11,546 nt of DNA from a virus: UHGV virus genome UHGV-1974939. One strand, 5' to 3'. The stretch's first letter is position 1, and every line of letters begins with the position of its first letter. The position numbers were made by a program, and so were the translations under genes. The notes beneath the pieces are model-generated. The model saw only the letters and a program-made list of their open reading frames with translations, did no database searches and was not told where the DNA came from. Below, piece after piece: positions 6,544 through 11,546 of the stretch.

Positions 6544-6966
6544 ATGTTCCTGAAAACCGAATCATTTGAACATAACGGTGTGACCGTCACGCTTTCTGAA
6601 CTGTCAGCCCTGCAGCGCATTGAGCATCTCGCCCTGATGAAACGGCAGGCAGAACAGGCGGAGTCAGACAGCAACCGGAAGTTTACTGTGGAAGACGCCA
6701 TCAGAACCGGCGCGTTTCTGGTGGCGATGTCCCTGTGGCATAACCATCCGCAGAAGACGCAGATGCCGTCCATGAATGAAGCCGTTAAACAGATTGAGCA
6801 GGAAGTGCTTACCACCTGGCCCACGGAGGCAATTTCTCATGCTGAAAACGTGGTGTACCGGCTGTCCGGTATGTATGAGTTTGTGGTGAATAATGCCCCT
6901 GAACAGACAGAGGACGCCAGGCCAGCAGAGCCTGTTTCTGCGGGAAAGTGTTCGACGGTGAGCTGA
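6544..6966 (+). CDS. G: Tail assembly chaperone G
   Basis: ATG 6544 preceded by GGAGAG at 6531-6536. The 140-aa product (MFLKTESFEHNGVTVTLSELSALQRIEHLALMKRQ...) is recognisable as lambda gpG. Stop is TGA 6964-6966. Confidence 0.93.
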   Translation: MFLKTESFEHNGVTVTLSELSALQRIEHLALMKRQAEQAESDSNRKFTVEDAIRTGAFLVAMSLWHNHPQKTQMPSMNEAVKQIEQEVLTTWPTEAISHAENVVYRLSGMYEFVVNNAPEQTEDARPAEPVSAGKCSTVS

Positions 6967-7382
6967 GTTTTGCCCTGAAACTGGCGCGTGAGATGGGGCG
7001 ACCCGACTGGCGCGCCATGCTTGCCGGGATGTCATCCACGGAGTATGCCGACTGGCACCGCTTTTACAGTACCCATTATTTTCATGATTTTCTGCTGGAT
7101 ATGCACTTTTCCGGGCTGACGTACACCGTGCTCAGCCTGTTTTTCAGCGATCCGGATATGCATCCGCTGGATTTCAGTCTGCTGAACCGGCGCGAGGCTG
7201 ACGAAGAGCCTGAAGATGATGTGCTGATGCAGAAAGCGGCAGGGCTTGCCGGAGGCGTTCGTTTTGGCCCGGACGGGAATGAAGTTATCCCCACTTCCCC
7301 GGATGTGGCGGACATGACGGAGGATGACGTAATGCTGATGACAGTATCAGAAGGGATCGCAGGAGGAGTCCGGTATGGCTGA
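6544..7382 (+). CDS. T: Tail assembly chaperone G-T fusion, made by programmed -1 ribosomal frameshift at 6942-6948
   Basis: The -1 frame relative to G is open from 6948 to TGA 7380-7382 (ORF track 6948..7382, product FDGELSFALKLAREMGRPDWRAMLAGMSSTEYADWHRFY...) and has no independent start with a ribosome-binding site. A G GGA AAG heptamer sits in the G zero frame seven codons before the G stop. This is the textbook lambda G/G-T arrangement. Confidence 0.85.
6942..6948 (+). other. Slippery heptanucleotide G_GGA_AAG for the G to G-T -1 frameshift
   Basis: The sequence gggaaag at 6942-6948 has GGA and AAG as zero-frame codons of G (codon starts 6943 and 6946), an X_XXY_YYZ pattern. The -1 frame continues in-frame into the T ORF. 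Confidence 0.85.
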
Positions 7383-9957
7383 ACCGGTAGGCGATCTGGT
7401 CGTTGATTTAAGTCTGGATGCGGCCAGATTTGACGAGCAGATGGCCAGAGTCAGGCGTCATTTTTCCGGTACGGAAAGTGATGCGAAAAAAACAGCGGCA
7501 GTCGTTGAACAGTCGCTGAGCCGACAGGCGCTGGCTGCACAGAAAGCGGGGATTTCCGTCGGGCAGTATAACGCCGCCATGCGTATGCTGCCTGCACAGT
7601 TCACCGACGTGGCCACGCAGCTTGCAGGCGGGCAAAGTCCGTGGCTGATCCTGCTGCAACAGGGGGGTCAGGTGAAGGACTCCTTCGGCGGGATGATCCC
7701 CATGTTCCGGGGGCTTGCCGGTGCGATCACCCTGCCGATGGTGGGGGCTACCTCGCTGGCGGTGGCGACCGGAGCGCTGGCGTATGCCTGGTATCAGGGC
7801 AACTCAACCCTGTCCGATTTCAACAAAACGCTGGTCCTTTCCGGTAATCAGGCAGGACTGACGGCAGATCGTATGCTGGTCCTGTCCAGAGCCGGGCAGG
7901 CGGCAGGGCTGACGTTTAACCAGACCAGCGAGTCACTCAGCGCACTGGTTAAGGCGGGAGTAAGCGGTGAGGCTCAGATTGCATCCATCAGCCAGAGTGT
8001 GGCGCGTTTCTCCTCTGCATCCGGCGTGGAGGTGGACAAGGTCGCTGAAGCCTTCGGGAAGCTGACCACAGACCCGACGTCGGGGCTGACGGCGATGGCA
8101 CGCCAGTTCCATAACGTGACGGCGGAGCAGATTGCGTATGTCGCTCAGTTGCAGCGTTCCGGCGATGAGGCAGGGGCATTGCAGGCGGCGAACGAGGCCG
8201 CAACGAAAGGGTTTGATGACCAGACCCGCCGCCTGAAAGAGAACATGGGCACGCTGGAGACCTGGGCAGACAGGACAGCGCGGGCATTCAAATCCATGTG
8301 GGATGCGGTGCTGGATATTGGTCGTCCTGATACCGCGCAGGAGATGCTGATTAAGGCAGAGGCTGCGTTTAAGAAAGCAGACGACATCTGGAATCTGCGC
8401 AAGGATGATTATTTTGTTAACGATGAAGCGCGGGCGCGTTACTGGGATGATCGTGAAAAGGCCCGTCTTGCGCTTGAAGCCGCCCGAAAGAAGGCTGAGC
8501 AGCAGAGTCAACAGGACAAAAATGCGCAGCAGCAGAGCGATACCGAAGCGTCACGGCTGAAATATACCGAAGAGGCGCAGAAGGCTTACGAACGGCTGCA
8601 GACGCCGCTGGAGAAATATACCGCCCGTCAGGAAGAACTGAACAAGGCACTGAAAGACGGGAAAATCCTGCAGGCGGATTACAACACGCTGATGGCGGCG
8701 GCGAAAAAGGATTATGAAGCGACGCTGAAAAAGCCGAAACAGTCCGGCGTGAAGGTGTCTGCGGGAGAGCGTCAGGAAGATCGAGCACATGCAGCTCTTC
8801 TTGCGTTACAAGCTGAACTAAAAATGCTTGAGCAGCATAGCGGAGCGAATGAAAAAATCAGCCAGCAGCGCCGAGATTTGTGGACAGCCGAAAGCCAGTA
8901 TGCCGTGTTGCATGAGAAGTTGTCTGCTGACGTTCTGGATGGACAGAAGAAATCGCTAAGTATCGAGGAAAAATCTCTTCTTGCTCATGAAAAAGAGACG
9001 CTGGAGTACAAACGTCAGCTGGCTGCACTTGGCGATAAGGTTGAACACCAGAAACGGCTGAACGAACTGGTACAGCAGGCGGATAAATTCGCACAGCAAC
9101 AACGGGCAAAACGGGCAGCCATTGAGGCGAAAAGCCGGGGACTGACTGACCGGCAGGCAGCGCGGGAAGCCATGGAACAGCGCCTGAAGGAACAGTATGG
9201 CGATAATCCGCTGGCGCTGAATAACGTCATGTCAGAGCAGAAAAAGACCTGGGCGGCTGAAGACCAGCTTCGCGGGAGCTGGATGGCAGGCCTGAAGTCC
9301 GGCTGGAGTGAGTGGGAAGAGAGCGCCACGGACAGTATGTCGCAGGTAAAAAGTGCAGCCACGCAGACCTTTGATGGTATTGCACAGAATATGGCGGCGA
9401 TGCTGACCGGCAGTGAGCAGAACTGGCGCAGCTTCACCCGTTCCGTGCTGTCCATGATGACAGAAATTCTGCTTAAGCAGGCAATGGTGGGGATTGTCGG
9501 GAGTATCGGCAGCGCCATTGGCGGGGCTGTTGGTGGCGGCGCATCCGCGTCAGGCGGTACAGCCATTCAGGCCGCTGCGGCGAAATTCCATTTTGCAACC
9601 GGAGGATTTACGGGAACCGGCGGCAAATATGAGCCAGCGGGGATTGTTCACCGTGGTGAATTTGTCTTCACGAAGGAGGCAACCAGCCGGATTGGCGTGG
9701 GAAATCTCTACCGGCTGATGCGCGGCTATGCCACCGGCGGTTATGTCGGTGGCACCGGAAGTCCGGCGCAAATGCGGCGTTCAGAGGGTATCAGGTTTGA
9801 GCAGAACAACAACGTGGTGATTCAGAACGACGGTACGAATGGTCTGCCAGGTCCACAGATGATGAAGGCAGTGTATGACATGGCCCGCAAGGGTGCCCGT
9901 GATGAAATTCAGACACAGATGCGTGATGGTGGCCTGTTCTCCGGAGGTGGACGATGA
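7375..9957 (+). CDS. H: Tail tape measure protein H
   Basis: ATG 7375 preceded by AGGAGGAG at 7361-7368 and overlapping the T stop by 8 nt. The 860-aa product is recognisable as lambda gpH. It has an N-terminal hydrophobic segment (GLAGAITLPMVGATSLAVATGALAYAW), a long charged Ala/Gln/Lys/Glu-rich helical centre and a Gly-rich C-terminal region (GSIGSAIGGAVGGGASASGG). Confidence 0.95.
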   Translation: MAEPVGDLVVDLSLDAARFDEQMARVRRHFSGTESDAKKTAAVVEQSLSRQALAAQKAGISVGQYNAAMRMLPAQFTDVATQLAGGQSPWLILLQQGGQVKDSFGGMIPMFRGLAGAITLPMVGATSLAVATGALAYAWYQGNSTLSDFNKTLVLSGNQAGLTADRMLVLSRAGQAAGLTFNQTSESLSALVKAGVSGEAQIASISQSVARFSSASGVEVDKVAEAFGKLTTDPTSGLTAMARQFHNVTAEQIAYVAQLQRSGDEAGALQAANEAATKGFDDQTRRLKENMGTLETWADRTARAFKSMWDAVLDIGRPDTAQEMLIKAEAAFKKADDIWNLRKDDYFVNDEARARYWDDREKARLALEAARKKAEQQSQQDKNAQQQSDTEASRLKYTEEAQKAYERLQTPLEKYTARQEELNKALKDGKILQADYNTLMAAAKKDYEATLKKPKQSGVKVSAGERQEDRAHAALLALQAELKMLEQHSGANEKISQQRRDLWTAESQYAVLHEKLSADVLDGQKKSLSIEEKSLLAHEKETLEYKRQLAALGDKVEHQKRLNELVQQADKFAQQQRAKRAAIEAKSRGLTDRQAAREAMEQRLKEQYGDNPLALNNVMSEQKKTWAAEDQLRGSWMAGLKSGWSEWEESATDSMSQVKSAATQTFDGIAQNMAAMLTGSEQNWRSFTRSVLSMMTEILLKQAMVGIVGSIGSAIGGAVGGGASASGGTAIQAAAAKFHFATGGFTGTGGKYEPAGIVHRGEFVFTKEATSRIGVGNLYRLMRGYATGGYVGGTGSPAQMRRSEGIRFEQNNNVVIQNDGTNGLPGPQMMKAVYDMARKGARDEIQTQMRDGGLFSGGGR

Positions 9958-10283
9958 AAACCTTCCGCTGGAAAGTGAAACCCGGTATGGATGTGGCTTC
10001 GGCCCCTTCTGTAAGAAAGGTGCGCTTTGGTGATGGCTATTCCCAGCGAGCGCCTGCCGGGCTGAATGCCAACCTGAAAACGTACAGCGTGACGCTTTCT
10101 GTCCCCCGTGAGGAGGCCACGGTACTGGAGTCGTTTCTGGAAGAGCACGGGGGCTGGAAAGCCTTTCTGTGGACGCCGCCTTATGAGTGGCGGCAGATAA
10201 AGGTGACCTGCGCAAAATGGTCGTCGCGGGTCAGTATGCTGCGTGTTGAGTTCAGCGCAGAGTTTGAACAGGTGGTGAACTGA
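9954..10283 (+). CDS. M: Tail tip assembly protein M
   Basis: ATG 9954 overlaps the H stop as ATGA and is preceded by GGAGGTGG at 9943-9950. The 109-aa product (MKTFRWKVKPGMDVASAPSVRKVRFGDGYSQRAP...) is recognisable as lambda gpM. Confidence 0.93.
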   Translation: MKTFRWKVKPGMDVASAPSVRKVRFGDGYSQRAPAGLNANLKTYSVTLSVPREEATVLESFLEEHGGWKAFLWTPPYEWRQIKVTCAKWSSRVSMLRVEFSAEFEQVVN

Positions 10284-10981
10284 TGCAGGATATCCGGCAG
10301 GAAACACTGAATGAATGCACCCGTGCGGAGCAGTCGGCCAGCGTGGTGCTCTGGGAAATCGACCTGACAGAGGTCGGTGGAGAACGTTATTTTTTCTGTA
10401 ATGAGCTGAACGAAAAAGGTGAGCCGGTCACCTGGCAGGGGCGACAGTATCAGCCGTATCCCATTCAGGGGAGTGGTTTTGAACTGAATGGCAAAGGCAC
10501 CAGTACGCGCCCCACGCTGACGGTTTCTAACCTGTACGGTATGGTCACCGGGATGGCGGAAGATCTGCAGAGTCTGGTCGGCGGAACGGTGGTCAGGCGT
10601 AAGGTTTACGCCCGTTTTCTGGATGCGGTGAACTTCGTCAACGGAAACAGTGACGCCGATCCGGAGCAGGAGGTGATCAGCCGCTGGCGCATTGAGCAGT
10701 GCAGCGAATTGAGCGCGGTGAGTGCCTCTTTTGTACTGTCCACGCCGACGGAAACGGACGGCGCTGTTTTTCCGGGACGTATCATGCTGGCCAACACCTG
10801 CACCTGGACCTATCGCGGCGATGAGTGCGGTTATCACGGTCCGGCGGTCGCGGATGAATATGACCAGCCAACGTCCGATATCACGAAGGATAAATGCAGC
10901 AAATGCCTGAGTGGCTGTAAGTTTCGCAATAACGTCGGCAACTTTGGCGGCTTCCTTTCCATTAACAAACTTTCGCAGTAA
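10283..10981 (+). CDS. L: Tail tip protein L with a C-terminal cysteine cluster (Fe-S binding type)
   Basis: ATG 10283 overlaps the M stop in TGATG. The 232-aa product (MQDIRQETLNECTRAEQSASVVLWEIDLTEVGGERYFFCNEL...) is recognisable as lambda gpL. Five Cys lie in the last ~60 residues (TCTW, DECGY, KCSKC, SGCK). Confidence 0.95.
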   Translation: MQDIRQETLNECTRAEQSASVVLWEIDLTEVGGERYFFCNELNEKGEPVTWQGRQYQPYPIQGSGFELNGKGTSTRPTLTVSNLYGMVTGMAEDLQSLVGGTVVRRKVYARFLDAVNFVNGNSDADPEQEVISRWRIEQCSELSAVSASFVLSTPTETDGAVFPGRIMLANTCTWTYRGDECGYHGPAVADEYDQPTSDITKDKCSKCLSGCKFRNNVGNFGGFLSINKLSQ

Positions 10982-10986
10982 ATCCC

Positions 10987-11546
10987 ATGACAGAGACAGA
11001 ATCAGCGATTCTGGCGCACGCCCGGCGATGTGCGCCAGCGGAGTCGTGCGGCTTCGTGGTGAGAACGCCGGAAGGGGAAAGATATTTTCCCTGCGTGAAT
11101 ATCTCCGGTGAGCCGGAGGATTATTTCCGGATGGCTCCGGAGGACTGGCTGCAGGCAGAAATGCAGGGTGAGATTGTGGCGCTGGTCCACAGCCACCCCG
11201 GTGGTCTGCCCTGGCTGAGTGAGGCTGACCGGCGGCTGCAGGTGCAGAGTGATTTGCCGTGGTGGCTGGTCTGCCGGAGGACGATTCATAAGTTCCGCTG
11301 TGTGCCGCATCTCACTGGGCGGCGCTTTGAACACGGGGTGACGGACTGTTACACGCTGTTCCGGGATGCTTATCATCTGGCGGGGATTGAGATGCCGGAT
11401 TTTCATCGCGAGGATGACTGGTGGCGTCACGGTCAGAATCTCTATCTGGATAATCTGGAGGCCACAGGGCTGTATCAGGTGCCGTTGTCATCAGCACAAC
11501 CGGGCGATGTGCTGCTGTGCTGTTTTGGTTCATCGGTGCCGAATCA
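10987..11546 (+). CDS. K: Tail tip assembly protein K (JAMM/MPN plus NlpC/P60 two-domain protein), 3'-truncated by the window edge
   Basis: Not in the ORF track because the frame has no stop inside the window. Hand translation from ATG 10987 in frame 1 gives MTETESAILAHARRCAPAESCGFVVRTPEGERYFPCVNISGEPEDYFRMAPEDWLQAEMQGEIVALVHSHPGGLPWLSEADRRLQVQ...GVTDCYTLFRDAYHLAGIEMPDF..., open to nt 11546. It contains an H-x-H-x7-S-x2-D JAMM signature at 11188-11229 and follows L by 5 nt, as K does in lambda. The start could instead be ATG 11131, which has GGAGGA upstream. Confidence 0.85.
   Translation, partial: MTETESAILAHARRCAPAESCGFVVRTPEGERYFPCVNISGEPEDYFRMAPEDWLQAEMQGEIVALVHSHPGGLPWLSEADRRLQVQSDLPWWLVCRRTIHKFRCVPHLTGRRFEHGVTDCYTLFRDAYHLAGIEMPDFHREDDWWRHGQNLYLDNLEATGLYQVPLSSAQPGDVLLCCFGSSVPN

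What the first reader, a model, noticed from the sequence alone, without database searches (positions are those of the whole stretch)
10987..11546. K gene is absent from the ORF track and encodes a two-domain JAMM/MPN plus NlpC/P60 protein with an ambiguous start
The ORF track shows nothing on the + strand for the last ~430 nt because this frame has no stop before the window ends. Hand translation reveals an intact JAMM metalloprotease signature (HSHPGGLPWLSEAD, nt 11188-11229) and a downstream D-C-Y (11344-11349) that could be the NlpC/P60 nucleophile; that domain pairing has been described for lambda K. Two starts are possible: ATG 10987 has no obvious Shine-Dalgarno but is needed to encode the N-terminal part of the MPN fold, while ATG 11131 has GGAGGA at 11115-11120 and matches the classical shorter K annotation as I recall it. 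The sequence cannot say which form is made, or whether both are.
Basis: partly seen in the sequence, partly recalled or inferred. Interest (0 to 1): 0.6.

Follow-up and report, generated by a model that had tools for sequence, protein, structure and literature searches.

The report
Lambda tail gene K, long start
The end of the window holds the first 186 codons of the well-known lambda tail-assembly gene K, a protein with two peptidase domains, and comparison with relatives shows it starts at the upstream ATG, so the finding is real but ordinary.

Summary
The + frame is open from 10966 to the window end, with ATG at 10987 and 11131, a perfect JAMM motif at 11188-11229 and a D-C-Y at 11344-11352. 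The window is a lambda-like late operon (about 97% identical to lambda, HK630 and mEp332), and this ORF is gene K, directly after L.

The start is not really ambiguous. The long form (ATG 10987; 247 aa in full-length relatives) is supported by several lines of evidence:
- Pfam Prok-JAB scores 54 bits over the whole profile; the short form scores 24 bits, below the cut-off.
- 95 of 98 distant homologues align from residues 1-15.
- The catalytic Glu19 is conserved in 187 of 188 homologues, and Gly22 and Asn38 are invariant.
- dN/dS in codons 2-48 equals that of the rest of the gene.
- An AlphaFold model (pLDDT 96.6) builds residues 1-48 into the MPN core.
- Met49 is Ile or Leu in most relatives.

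The classical 199-aa lambda K exists because the 1982 reference (J02459/NC_001416) lacks one G just upstream of that ATG. Independently sequenced lambda copies carry it.

The domain pairing has been published since 2003-2006, and recent records already annotate 247 aa. This is already known and of low interest.

The parts
10283..10981 (+). Gene L (tail tip protein L), immediately upstream. Its TAA stop at 10979-10981 lies 5 nt before the K start.
   Evidence: Pfam Phage_tail_L, 335 bits; ORF list; annotated as L in phi458, phage 21 and lambda.
10987..11546 (+). Gene K, 5' part: codons 1-186 plus the first two bases (CA) of the His187 codon. It is cut by the window end; full length is 247 aa in relatives.
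   Evidence: Translation; 98% nucleotide identity to phi458 and 97-98% to phage 21 and lambda relatives; 247-aa homologues.
10987..10989 (+). Start codon of the long (full) form. It has no Shine-Dalgarno sequence and is probably translated by coupling to L termination.
   Evidence: Anti-SD duplex +0.7 kcal/mol. The start lies 5-11 nt after the L stop in all relatives examined. The N-termini of distant homologues coincide with it.
10993..11298 (+). JAB/MPN (JAMM) metallopeptidase domain, residues 3-104.
   Evidence: Pfam Prok-JAB PF14464, 54.4 bits, profile positions 4-112 of 114. Foldseek matches to PfJAMM1 5ld9/5lda, AMSH, Rpn11 and CSN5.
11041..11043 (+). Glu19, the upstream catalytic glutamate of the JAMM motif. 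It is encoded only by the long form.
   Evidence: Glu in 187 of 188 homologues; nearly invariant in alignments A2 and A3.
11115..11120 (+). GGAGGA, Shine-Dalgarno-like, inside codons P43-E44-D45.
   Evidence: Anti-SD duplex -9.5 kcal/mol. It is retained in E. albertii and E. ruysiae copies that have no ATG at codon 49, and lost in Citrobacter copies that keep the ATG.
11131..11133 (+). Internal ATG (Met49), the start of the classical 199-aa annotation.
   Evidence: Equivalent to lambda 14276. The residue is Ile in 39 of 56 homologues at 70-90% identity, and Met in only 7 of 91 below 50% identity.
11188..11229 (+). JAMM zinc-binding motif H68-S-H70-x7-S78-x2-D81.
   Evidence: H68, H70 and D81 are invariant and S78 is nearly invariant.
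11317..11544 (+). NlpC/P60 (C40) papain-like peptidase domain, N-terminal two thirds (residues 111-186).
   Evidence: Pfam NLPC_P60 scores 19.8 bits on the truncated piece, profile positions 1-59 of 105, and 49.2 bits over 1-105 of 105 in the full-length 97%-identical P0006. Foldseek matches to MepS/Spr, LytE and Acd autolysins.
11347..11349 (+). Cys121, the predicted NlpC/P60 nucleophile (D120-C121-Y122).
   Evidence: D120 is invariant, and C121 is Cys in 90 of 91 distant homologues. The partner residues H187 and H199 are invariant in A3 but lie beyond the window.

Best explanation
Positions 10987-11546 are the first 186 codons of lambda-type gene K (tail tip assembly protein K). The full protein is 247 aa and has an N-terminal JAB/MPN (JAMM) zinc metallopeptidase domain fused to a C-terminal NlpC/P60 (C40) cysteine peptidase domain. 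Shown here: the gene identity, the two domains, the intact catalytic signatures (E19, H68, H70, S78, D81; C121, with H187 and H199 just past the window), and that the conserved coding region begins at ATG 10987. Inferred: ATG 10987 has no Shine-Dalgarno sequence and lies 5 nt after the L stop codon, so it is most likely read by ribosomes that have just terminated on L, as in the tightly packed H-M-L genes. The GGAGGA plus ATG at 11115-11133 is an accident of the codons P-E-D...M in the close lambda group. Inferred from the literature (about 40% confidence for this step): K acts catalytically during tail-tip assembly and is not kept in the virion. The published prediction is that its JAB domain cleaves the ubiquitin-like N-terminal domain from the neighbouring protein I, whose C-terminal part (residues 135-223) ends up as the plug in the tail tip.
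For: Identity and context:
- The L-K region is 98.3% identical to phage phi458 and 97-98% identical to many lambda relatives.
- The whole window is 96.6-96.8% identical to mEp332, HK630 and lambda.
- The genes upstream are portal, C, D, E, V, G, H, M and L by Pfam.

Domains:
- Prok-JAB scores 54.4 bits against a cut-off of 25 for the long form. The short form scores 24.2 bits and covers only profile positions 63-112.
- Full-length P0006 (97% identical) has Prok-JAB at 51.9 bits and NLPC_P60 at 49.2 bits over the complete profile.
- The AlphaFold2 model of P0006 has pLDDT 96.6 and pTM 0.90. Residues 1-48 form helix 3-15 and strands 21-27 and 30-36 at pLDDT 97-98.
- Foldseek against the PDB finds JAMM enzymes (PfJAMM1 5ld9/5lda, rmsd 2.5-2.7 A; AMSH; Rpn11; CSN5) and NlpC/P60 enzymes (MepS, LytE, Acd33800).

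Start codon:
- Of 98 representatives at 34-54% identity and 200-300 aa, 95 align from query residue 15 or earlier. Their N-termini lie within 8 residues of the long start in 93% of these.
- E19 is conserved in 187 of 188 homologues, and G22 and N38 are invariant.
- dN/dS for codons 2-48 is 0.10 against 0.11 for codons 49-186 (window versus E. albertii, pS 0.45). It is 0.10-0.14 in comparisons among the distant enterobacterial copies.
- Met49 is replaced by Ile, Leu or Val in most relatives. The SD-like sequence and the ATG do not co-occur outside the close lambda group.
- The short start would leave a 149-nt gap in an operon where H/M overlap by 4 nt, M/L by 1 nt and L/K are 5 nt apart.

Source of the short annotation:
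- J02459/NC_001416 lacks one G (GAGGC-TATTTCC) that is present in resequenced lambda LC730321, PV340536 and DE3, and in about 20 lambda contaminant contigs.
- The deletion allele has no match in viral contigs or metagenome contigs and no 100% match in 5,426 E. coli genomes.

Literature:
- TAPK = JAB + NlpC/P60, predicted to process the ubiquitin-like TAPI (PMC1779556).
- gpK was not detected in virions by mass spectrometry, and only gpI residues 135-223 are seen in the tail tip (PMC10721106).
Against: No experimental start-site data were available here, neither N-terminal sequence nor ribosome profiling. ATG 10987 has no Shine-Dalgarno sequence, whereas ATG 11131 has a strong one at about 10 nt spacing. 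Gene callers therefore choose 11131 in a sizeable minority of cases: about 8.8 thousand member sequences in 199-aa clusters against about 50.8 thousand in 247-aa clusters among the listed hits. The NlpC/P60 Pfam score within the window alone (19.8 bits) is below the cut-off of 23, because the window cuts the domain. Peptidase activity of K and cleavage of protein I have not, to my knowledge, been shown biochemically.
Confidence: 0.88

Rival explanations
1. Both forms are made. The long K comes from 10987 by coupling to L. A shorter 199-aa form comes from internal initiation at ATG 11131, driven by the GGAGGA, and consists of an NlpC/P60 domain with a crippled JAB remnant. This would be a dual-start gene, like lambda S107/S105.
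For: The internal site has a strong predicted SD pairing of -9.5 kcal/mol at workable spacing. SD plus ATG is present throughout the close lambda group. Automatic gene callers often pick it.
Against: The combination is not conserved. E. albertii and E. ruysiae copies keep GGAGG but have ATC or CTG at codon 49. Citrobacter copies keep ATG but lose the SD. Distant relatives have neither. The GGAGG is explained by the conserved P-E codons. A product starting at Met49 would lack helix 3-15, strands 21-27 and 30-36, and Glu19 of the MPN core.
Confidence: 0.09
2. Only the short 199-aa K from ATG 11131 is made, as in the classical lambda annotation, and 10987-11130 is untranslated or a separate small ORF.
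For: The NC_001416, J02459, DE3 and phi458 records annotate K this way. There is a strong SD at 11115-11120 and none at 10987.
Against: Codons 2-48 are under the same purifying selection as the rest of the gene. They carry invariant or near-invariant residues including the JAMM glutamate, are needed for a Pfam-significant JAB hit, and match the N-termini of 95 of 98 distant homologues. The short annotation traces to a missing base in one reference sequence.
Confidence: 0.03

Closest known systems
Bacteriophage lambda gpK (tail tip assembly protein K; TAPK of Iyer, Burroughs & Aravind 2006)
   Same: The same gene in the same position (after L; I and J follow in the 98%-identical phi458). The protein is about 96-97% identical to resequenced lambda K, with the same JAB + NlpC/P60 architecture and the same catalytic residues.
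   Different: It differs from the GenBank reference annotation (199 aa, start 14276) only because that reference lacks one G between 14266 and 14267, which breaks the long frame. There are a few amino-acid substitutions, for example D45 and A50 here against A and S in lambda.
Archaeal JAMM1 desampylases (P. furiosus JAMM1, PDB 5ld9/5lda; Haloferax HvJAMM1) and eukaryotic JAMM deubiquitinases (AMSH, Rpn11, CSN5)
   Same: The same MPN fold (Foldseek TM 0.66 on the target, rmsd 2.5-2.7 A) and the same E...HxHx7SxxD zinc site. There is a weak NCBIfam hit to desampylase. They probably also share the logic of cutting after a ubiquitin-like domain (PMC1779556).
   Different: Sequence identity is only 21-24%. 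K scores far below the desampylase family cut-off (30 bits against 130), so it is not a member of that equivalog. K is fused to a second peptidase domain and works in phage tail assembly. Its substrate has not been demonstrated.
NlpC/P60 (C40) peptidases such as E. coli MepS/Spr and B. subtilis LytE
   Same: The papain-like fold and a Cys-His-His arrangement (C121, H187, H199).
   Different: There is no signal peptide or cell-wall-binding module. K is not found in the virion (PMC10721106), so a role in cutting peptidoglycan at infection is unlikely. The substrate is unknown.

Membership tests
JAB/MPN+ (JAMM) metallopeptidases, Pfam Prok-JAB PF14464 | Profile match above the curated cut-off | tested here: met
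   54.4 bits against a cut-off of 25 for window 10987-11544, covering profile positions 4-112 of 114. The short form alone scores 24.2 bits and fails.
JAB/MPN+ (JAMM) metallopeptidases, Pfam Prok-JAB PF14464 | JAMM motif: Glu ... H-x-H-x7-S-x2-D | tested here: met
   E19, H68, H70, S78 and D81 are present and conserved in 83-100% of 188 homologues.
JAB/MPN+ (JAMM) metallopeptidases, Pfam Prok-JAB PF14464 | MPN fold | tested here: met
   The AF2 model of the 97%-identical P0006 has pLDDT 96.6. Foldseek hits include 5ld9, 5lda, 2kks, AMSH, Rpn11 and CSN5. There is also a sequence hit to the 2kks MPN protein.
JAB/MPN+ (JAMM) metallopeptidases, Pfam Prok-JAB PF14464 | Zinc-dependent (iso)peptidase activity | not testable with these tools
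   This needs biochemistry.
NlpC/P60 (C40) peptidases, Pfam PF00877 | Profile match above the curated cut-off | tested here: inconclusive
   The window fragment scores 19.8 bits against a cut-off of 23, because only profile positions 1-59 of 105 lie inside the window. The full-length 97%-identical homologue scores 49.2 bits over 1-105 of 105.
NlpC/P60 (C40) peptidases, Pfam PF00877 | Catalytic Cys followed by His and a third polar residue (His) | tested here: met
   C121 is in the window and nearly invariant. H187 and H199 are invariant in homologues. The window ends with CA, the first two bases of the His187 codon.
Lambda-type tail tip assembly protein K | Position in the tail operon: directly after L and before I and J | tested here: met
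   L is directly upstream in the window. I and J follow K in the 98%-identical phi458 and in phage 21 and lambda. The downstream side is outside the window.
Lambda-type tail tip assembly protein K | High sequence identity to lambda K | tested here: met
   95-97% protein identity to 247-aa E. coli prophage and lambda K clusters, and 97-98% nucleotide identity.
Desampylase equivalog NF041370 | Score above the equivalog cut-off | tested here: not met
   30 bits against a cut-off of 130. The fold and motif are related, but K is not a member.

The most novel reading that the evidence does not exclude
In the close lambda group only, the strong GGAGGA plus ATG at 11115-11133 might drive a second, N-terminally truncated K isoform. 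It would have an intact NlpC/P60 domain and an inactive JAB remnant, with a role of its own in tail-tip assembly. That would make K a dual-start gene.
Probability: 0.08. Interest if true: 0.35.

Novelty: already known. Interest (0 to 1): 0.12.

Why it matters
It matters mainly for annotation. The 199-aa K in the lambda reference records, copied into DE3, phi458 and many gene-caller outputs, removes the catalytic glutamate and a third of the JAB domain. That hides the fact that K is a complete two-peptidase protein. Using the 247-aa form is necessary for any structural or biochemical test of the long-standing prediction that K processes the ubiquitin-like protein I during tail-tip assembly. Nothing here changes the biology as specialists already understand it. 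Recent expert annotations (lambda PV340536, phage 21 OL657228) already use the long form.

Tried and rejected
1. I looked for a published statement on the K start or on the reference error. Full-text searches and reading PMC12315714 and PMC3059205 gave nothing explicit. The Casjens & Hendrix 2015 review and the Liu et al. 2013 lambda ribosome-profiling paper are not held.
2. I tested whether the 199-aa protein clusters reflect a real frameshift allele. They do not. In L009-L011 the upstream frame is open with the usual N-terminus, so these are gene-caller choices. Only L012 has a genuine TAG at codon 46.
3. I tested whether the lambda-reference deletion allele circulates. It has 0 exact matches in viral contigs and metagenome contigs and no 100% match in E. 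coli complete genomes. It appears only in J02459, NC_001416, OR474059 and OR974322.
4. I considered programmed frameshifting at the GGGAAAG at 11075-11081 inside the N-terminal extension. I rejected it: the heptamer is out of register with the K frame, 3 copies per window is within chance, and the frame is simply continuous here.
5. dN/dS for the most diverged pairs was saturated (pS above 0.75) and gave no number, so only the unsaturated pairs are quoted.

Full report
**What is in the sequence**

The frame containing position 10987 is open from 10966 to the last base of the window, 193 codons. The ORF listing shows nothing on the + strand after 11111 only because it omits ORFs that run off the end. 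Translation from ATG 10987 gives 186 codons.

- HSHPGGLPWLSEAD is at residues 68-81, nt 11188-11229. This JAMM pattern occurs once in the six-frame translation, against 0.003 per shuffled window.
- D120-C121-Y122 lie at 11344-11352.
- Met49 is ATG 11131, preceded by GGAGGA at 11115-11120.
- Predicted pairing with the 16S rRNA 3' end is -9.5 kcal/mol for the internal site and +0.7 kcal/mol upstream of 10987.

**What it is**

The whole window is 96.6-96.8% identical to lambda-like phages mEp332, HK630 and lambda itself. The L-K segment is 98.3% identical to phi458. Pfam identifies portal, protease C, D, E, V, G, H, M and L upstream. L ends at 10981, 5 nt before ATG 10987, so the ORF is gene K.

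The long form matches Pfam Prok-JAB at 54.4 bits (cut-off 25) over profile positions 4-112 of 114. It also matches the first 59 of 105 positions of NLPC_P60 at 19.8 bits, where the window cuts the domain. A 97%-identical full-length homologue (P0006, 247 aa) has Prok-JAB at 51.9 bits and NLPC_P60 at 49.2 bits over the complete profile.

An AlphaFold2 model of P0006, built with a 78-sequence alignment, has pLDDT 96.6 and pTM 0.90. Foldseek against the PDB returns two sets of hits:
- JAMM enzymes: P. furiosus JAMM1 alone and with SAMP2, AMSH, Rpn11 and CSN5.
- NlpC/P60 enzymes: MepS/Spr, LytE and C. difficile Acd autolysins.

The catalytic residues are E19, H68, H70, S78 and D81 for the JAB domain, and C121 for the NlpC/P60 domain. 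Its partners H187 and H199 are invariant in homologues. The window ends with CA, the first two bases of the His187 codon.

**Which start**

They do.

- An exhaustive HMMER search of 1.84 billion representatives gave 2,223 hits. Of 98 representatives at 34-54% identity and 200-300 aa, 95 align from query residue 15 or earlier. In 93% of these the N-terminus is within 8 residues of the long start.
- In alignments A2 and A3, the segment before residue 49 contains invariant G22 and N38 and near-invariant P17, E19, C21 and F47. E19 is Glu in 187 of 188 homologues.
- Codons 2-48 evolve under the same purifying selection as the rest of the gene. dN/dS is 0.10 against 0.11 for the window versus an E. 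albertii copy at pS 0.45, and 0.10-0.14 in comparisons among the distant enterobacterial copies.
- In the model, residues 1-48 form helix 3-15 and strands 21-27 and 30-36 of the MPN core at pLDDT 97-98.
- Residue 49 is Met only in close lambda relatives. It is Ile in 39 of 56 homologues at 70-90% identity, and Met in only 7 of 91 below 50% identity.
- The SD-like sequence and the ATG do not travel together. E. albertii and E. ruysiae copies keep GGAGG but have ATC or CTG at codon 49. Citrobacter copies keep ATG but have CCG ACC instead of the SD. Distant copies have neither.
- A start at 11131 would leave a 149-nt gap in an operon where H/M overlap by 4 nt, M/L overlap by 1 nt and L/K are 5 nt apart. 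In every relative examined, K starts 5-11 nt after the L stop.

I conclude that the protein starts at 10987. I infer, but have not shown, that it is translated by coupling to L.

**Why the classical annotation is short**

Aligning the window, phi458, phage 21 and NC_001416 shows that the lambda reference lacks one base: GAGGC-TATTTCC against GAGGCGTATTTCC. The gap falls between J02459 positions 14266 and 14267, 9 nt before the short ATG. This puts the upstream ATG out of frame, so only the 199-aa ORF could be annotated.

- Independently sequenced lambda carries the G: LC730321 (48,503 bp), PV340536 (an MG1655 lysogen, which annotates a 744-nt K), and DE3 in BL21(DE3).
- So do about 20 low-coverage lambda contaminant contigs in genomes of unrelated bacteria, which are effectively independent resequencings of laboratory lambda DNA.
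- The deletion allele has no exact match in 2.9 million viral contigs or 241 million metagenome records. It has no 100% match among 10,687 places in 5,426 complete E. coli genomes.
- It appears only in J02459, NC_001416 and two records that are identical to them in this stretch.

The most economical reading is an error in the 1982 sequence, or a private mutation of the sequenced stock. I found no paper in the held library that says so.

The 199-aa protein clusters in public data are gene-caller choices. In three of the four contigs checked the upstream frame is open with the normal N-terminus, and the fourth has a real TAG.

**How it probably works**

The architecture has been in the literature since Anantharaman & Aravind 2003 and Iyer, Burroughs & Aravind 2006. 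The latter call it TAPK and predict that its JAB domain releases the ubiquitin-like N-terminal domain of the neighbouring protein I (PMC1779556).

Cryo-EM and mass spectrometry of lambda virions did not detect gpK. They resolved only residues 135-223 of gpI as a plug in the tail-tip lumen (PMC10721106). This is consistent with, but does not prove, processing of I by a non-structural K. I rate that mechanistic step at about 40%. The role of the NlpC/P60 domain is unknown.

**Verdict**

The identity and domain pairing are supported. The supposed ambiguity of the start is resolved in favour of 10987. A minor internal initiation product in lambda-type phages cannot be excluded from sequence (about 8-9%).

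This is a known gene with a known architecture, and current expert annotations already use the long form. Interest is low. Its practical value is as an annotation correction.

Noticed in passing
L002:1267-1268 (NC_001416/J02459 between 14266 and 14267); corresponds to window 11121: The lambda reference sequence lacks one G that is present in resequenced lambda (LC730321, PV340536, DE3), in every other relative examined, and in about 20 lambda contaminant contigs. This breaks the long K frame and explains the 199-aa annotation. The deletion allele was not found in viral, metagenome or E. coli genome collections.
   Followed up: yes
L015-L028, L030, L037, L038, L040, L041, L046 (genome-contig hits): Near-identical lambda DNA turns up as low-coverage contigs, some about 48.5 kb at about 1x coverage. 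The assemblies are of unrelated organisms (Neobacillus, Psychrobacter, Pseudoxanthomonas, Shewanella, Bradyrhizobium, Enterococcus, Kitasatospora and others). This is almost certainly laboratory lambda control DNA contaminating those assemblies.
   Followed up: partly
window 6942-6948: GGGAAAG heptamer at the end of the G ORF (6544-6966), with the overlapping T-frame ORF at 6948-7382. It is the expected site of the lambda G/GT -1 programmed frameshift. A second copy at 11075-11081 inside K is out of register and looks like chance.
   Followed up: partly
L002:1774-2445 versus L006:1475 onward and L001:3945-4517: The start of gene I (downstream of the window) is also annotated in two ways. The lambda reference gives 223 aa, overlapping K by about 100 nt. 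PV340536 and phi458 give 190 aa, starting at an ATGA overlap with the K stop. The cryo-EM paper numbers gpI on the 223-aa form.
   Followed up: no
window 10800-10935 (C-terminal part of L): A cluster of cysteines (CTWTYRGDECGY ... CSKCLSGC) in the L C-terminus, the region reported to bind an iron-sulfur cluster in gpL (mentioned in PMC10721106).
   Followed up: no
L012:70-80; L053, L063, L064 (E. coli and Shigella prophages): Some K copies are truly damaged. One has a TAG at codon 46 in a metagenome contig. Others are frameshifted or truncated K ORFs (35-144 aa) in prophages of E. coli ECMA0423 and Shigella flexneri. These are presumably decaying prophages.
   Followed up: partly
window 7375-9957: The tape-measure gene H encodes 860 aa here, against 853 aa in the lambda reference (10542..13103). 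This is a small length difference in a protein that sets tail length.
   Followed up: no
E. coli genome search: The L-K junction sequence is present in 4,332 of 5,426 complete E. coli genomes, at a median of 2 and up to 12 places per genome. This shows how common lambda-type tail modules are in E. coli prophages.
   Followed up: no
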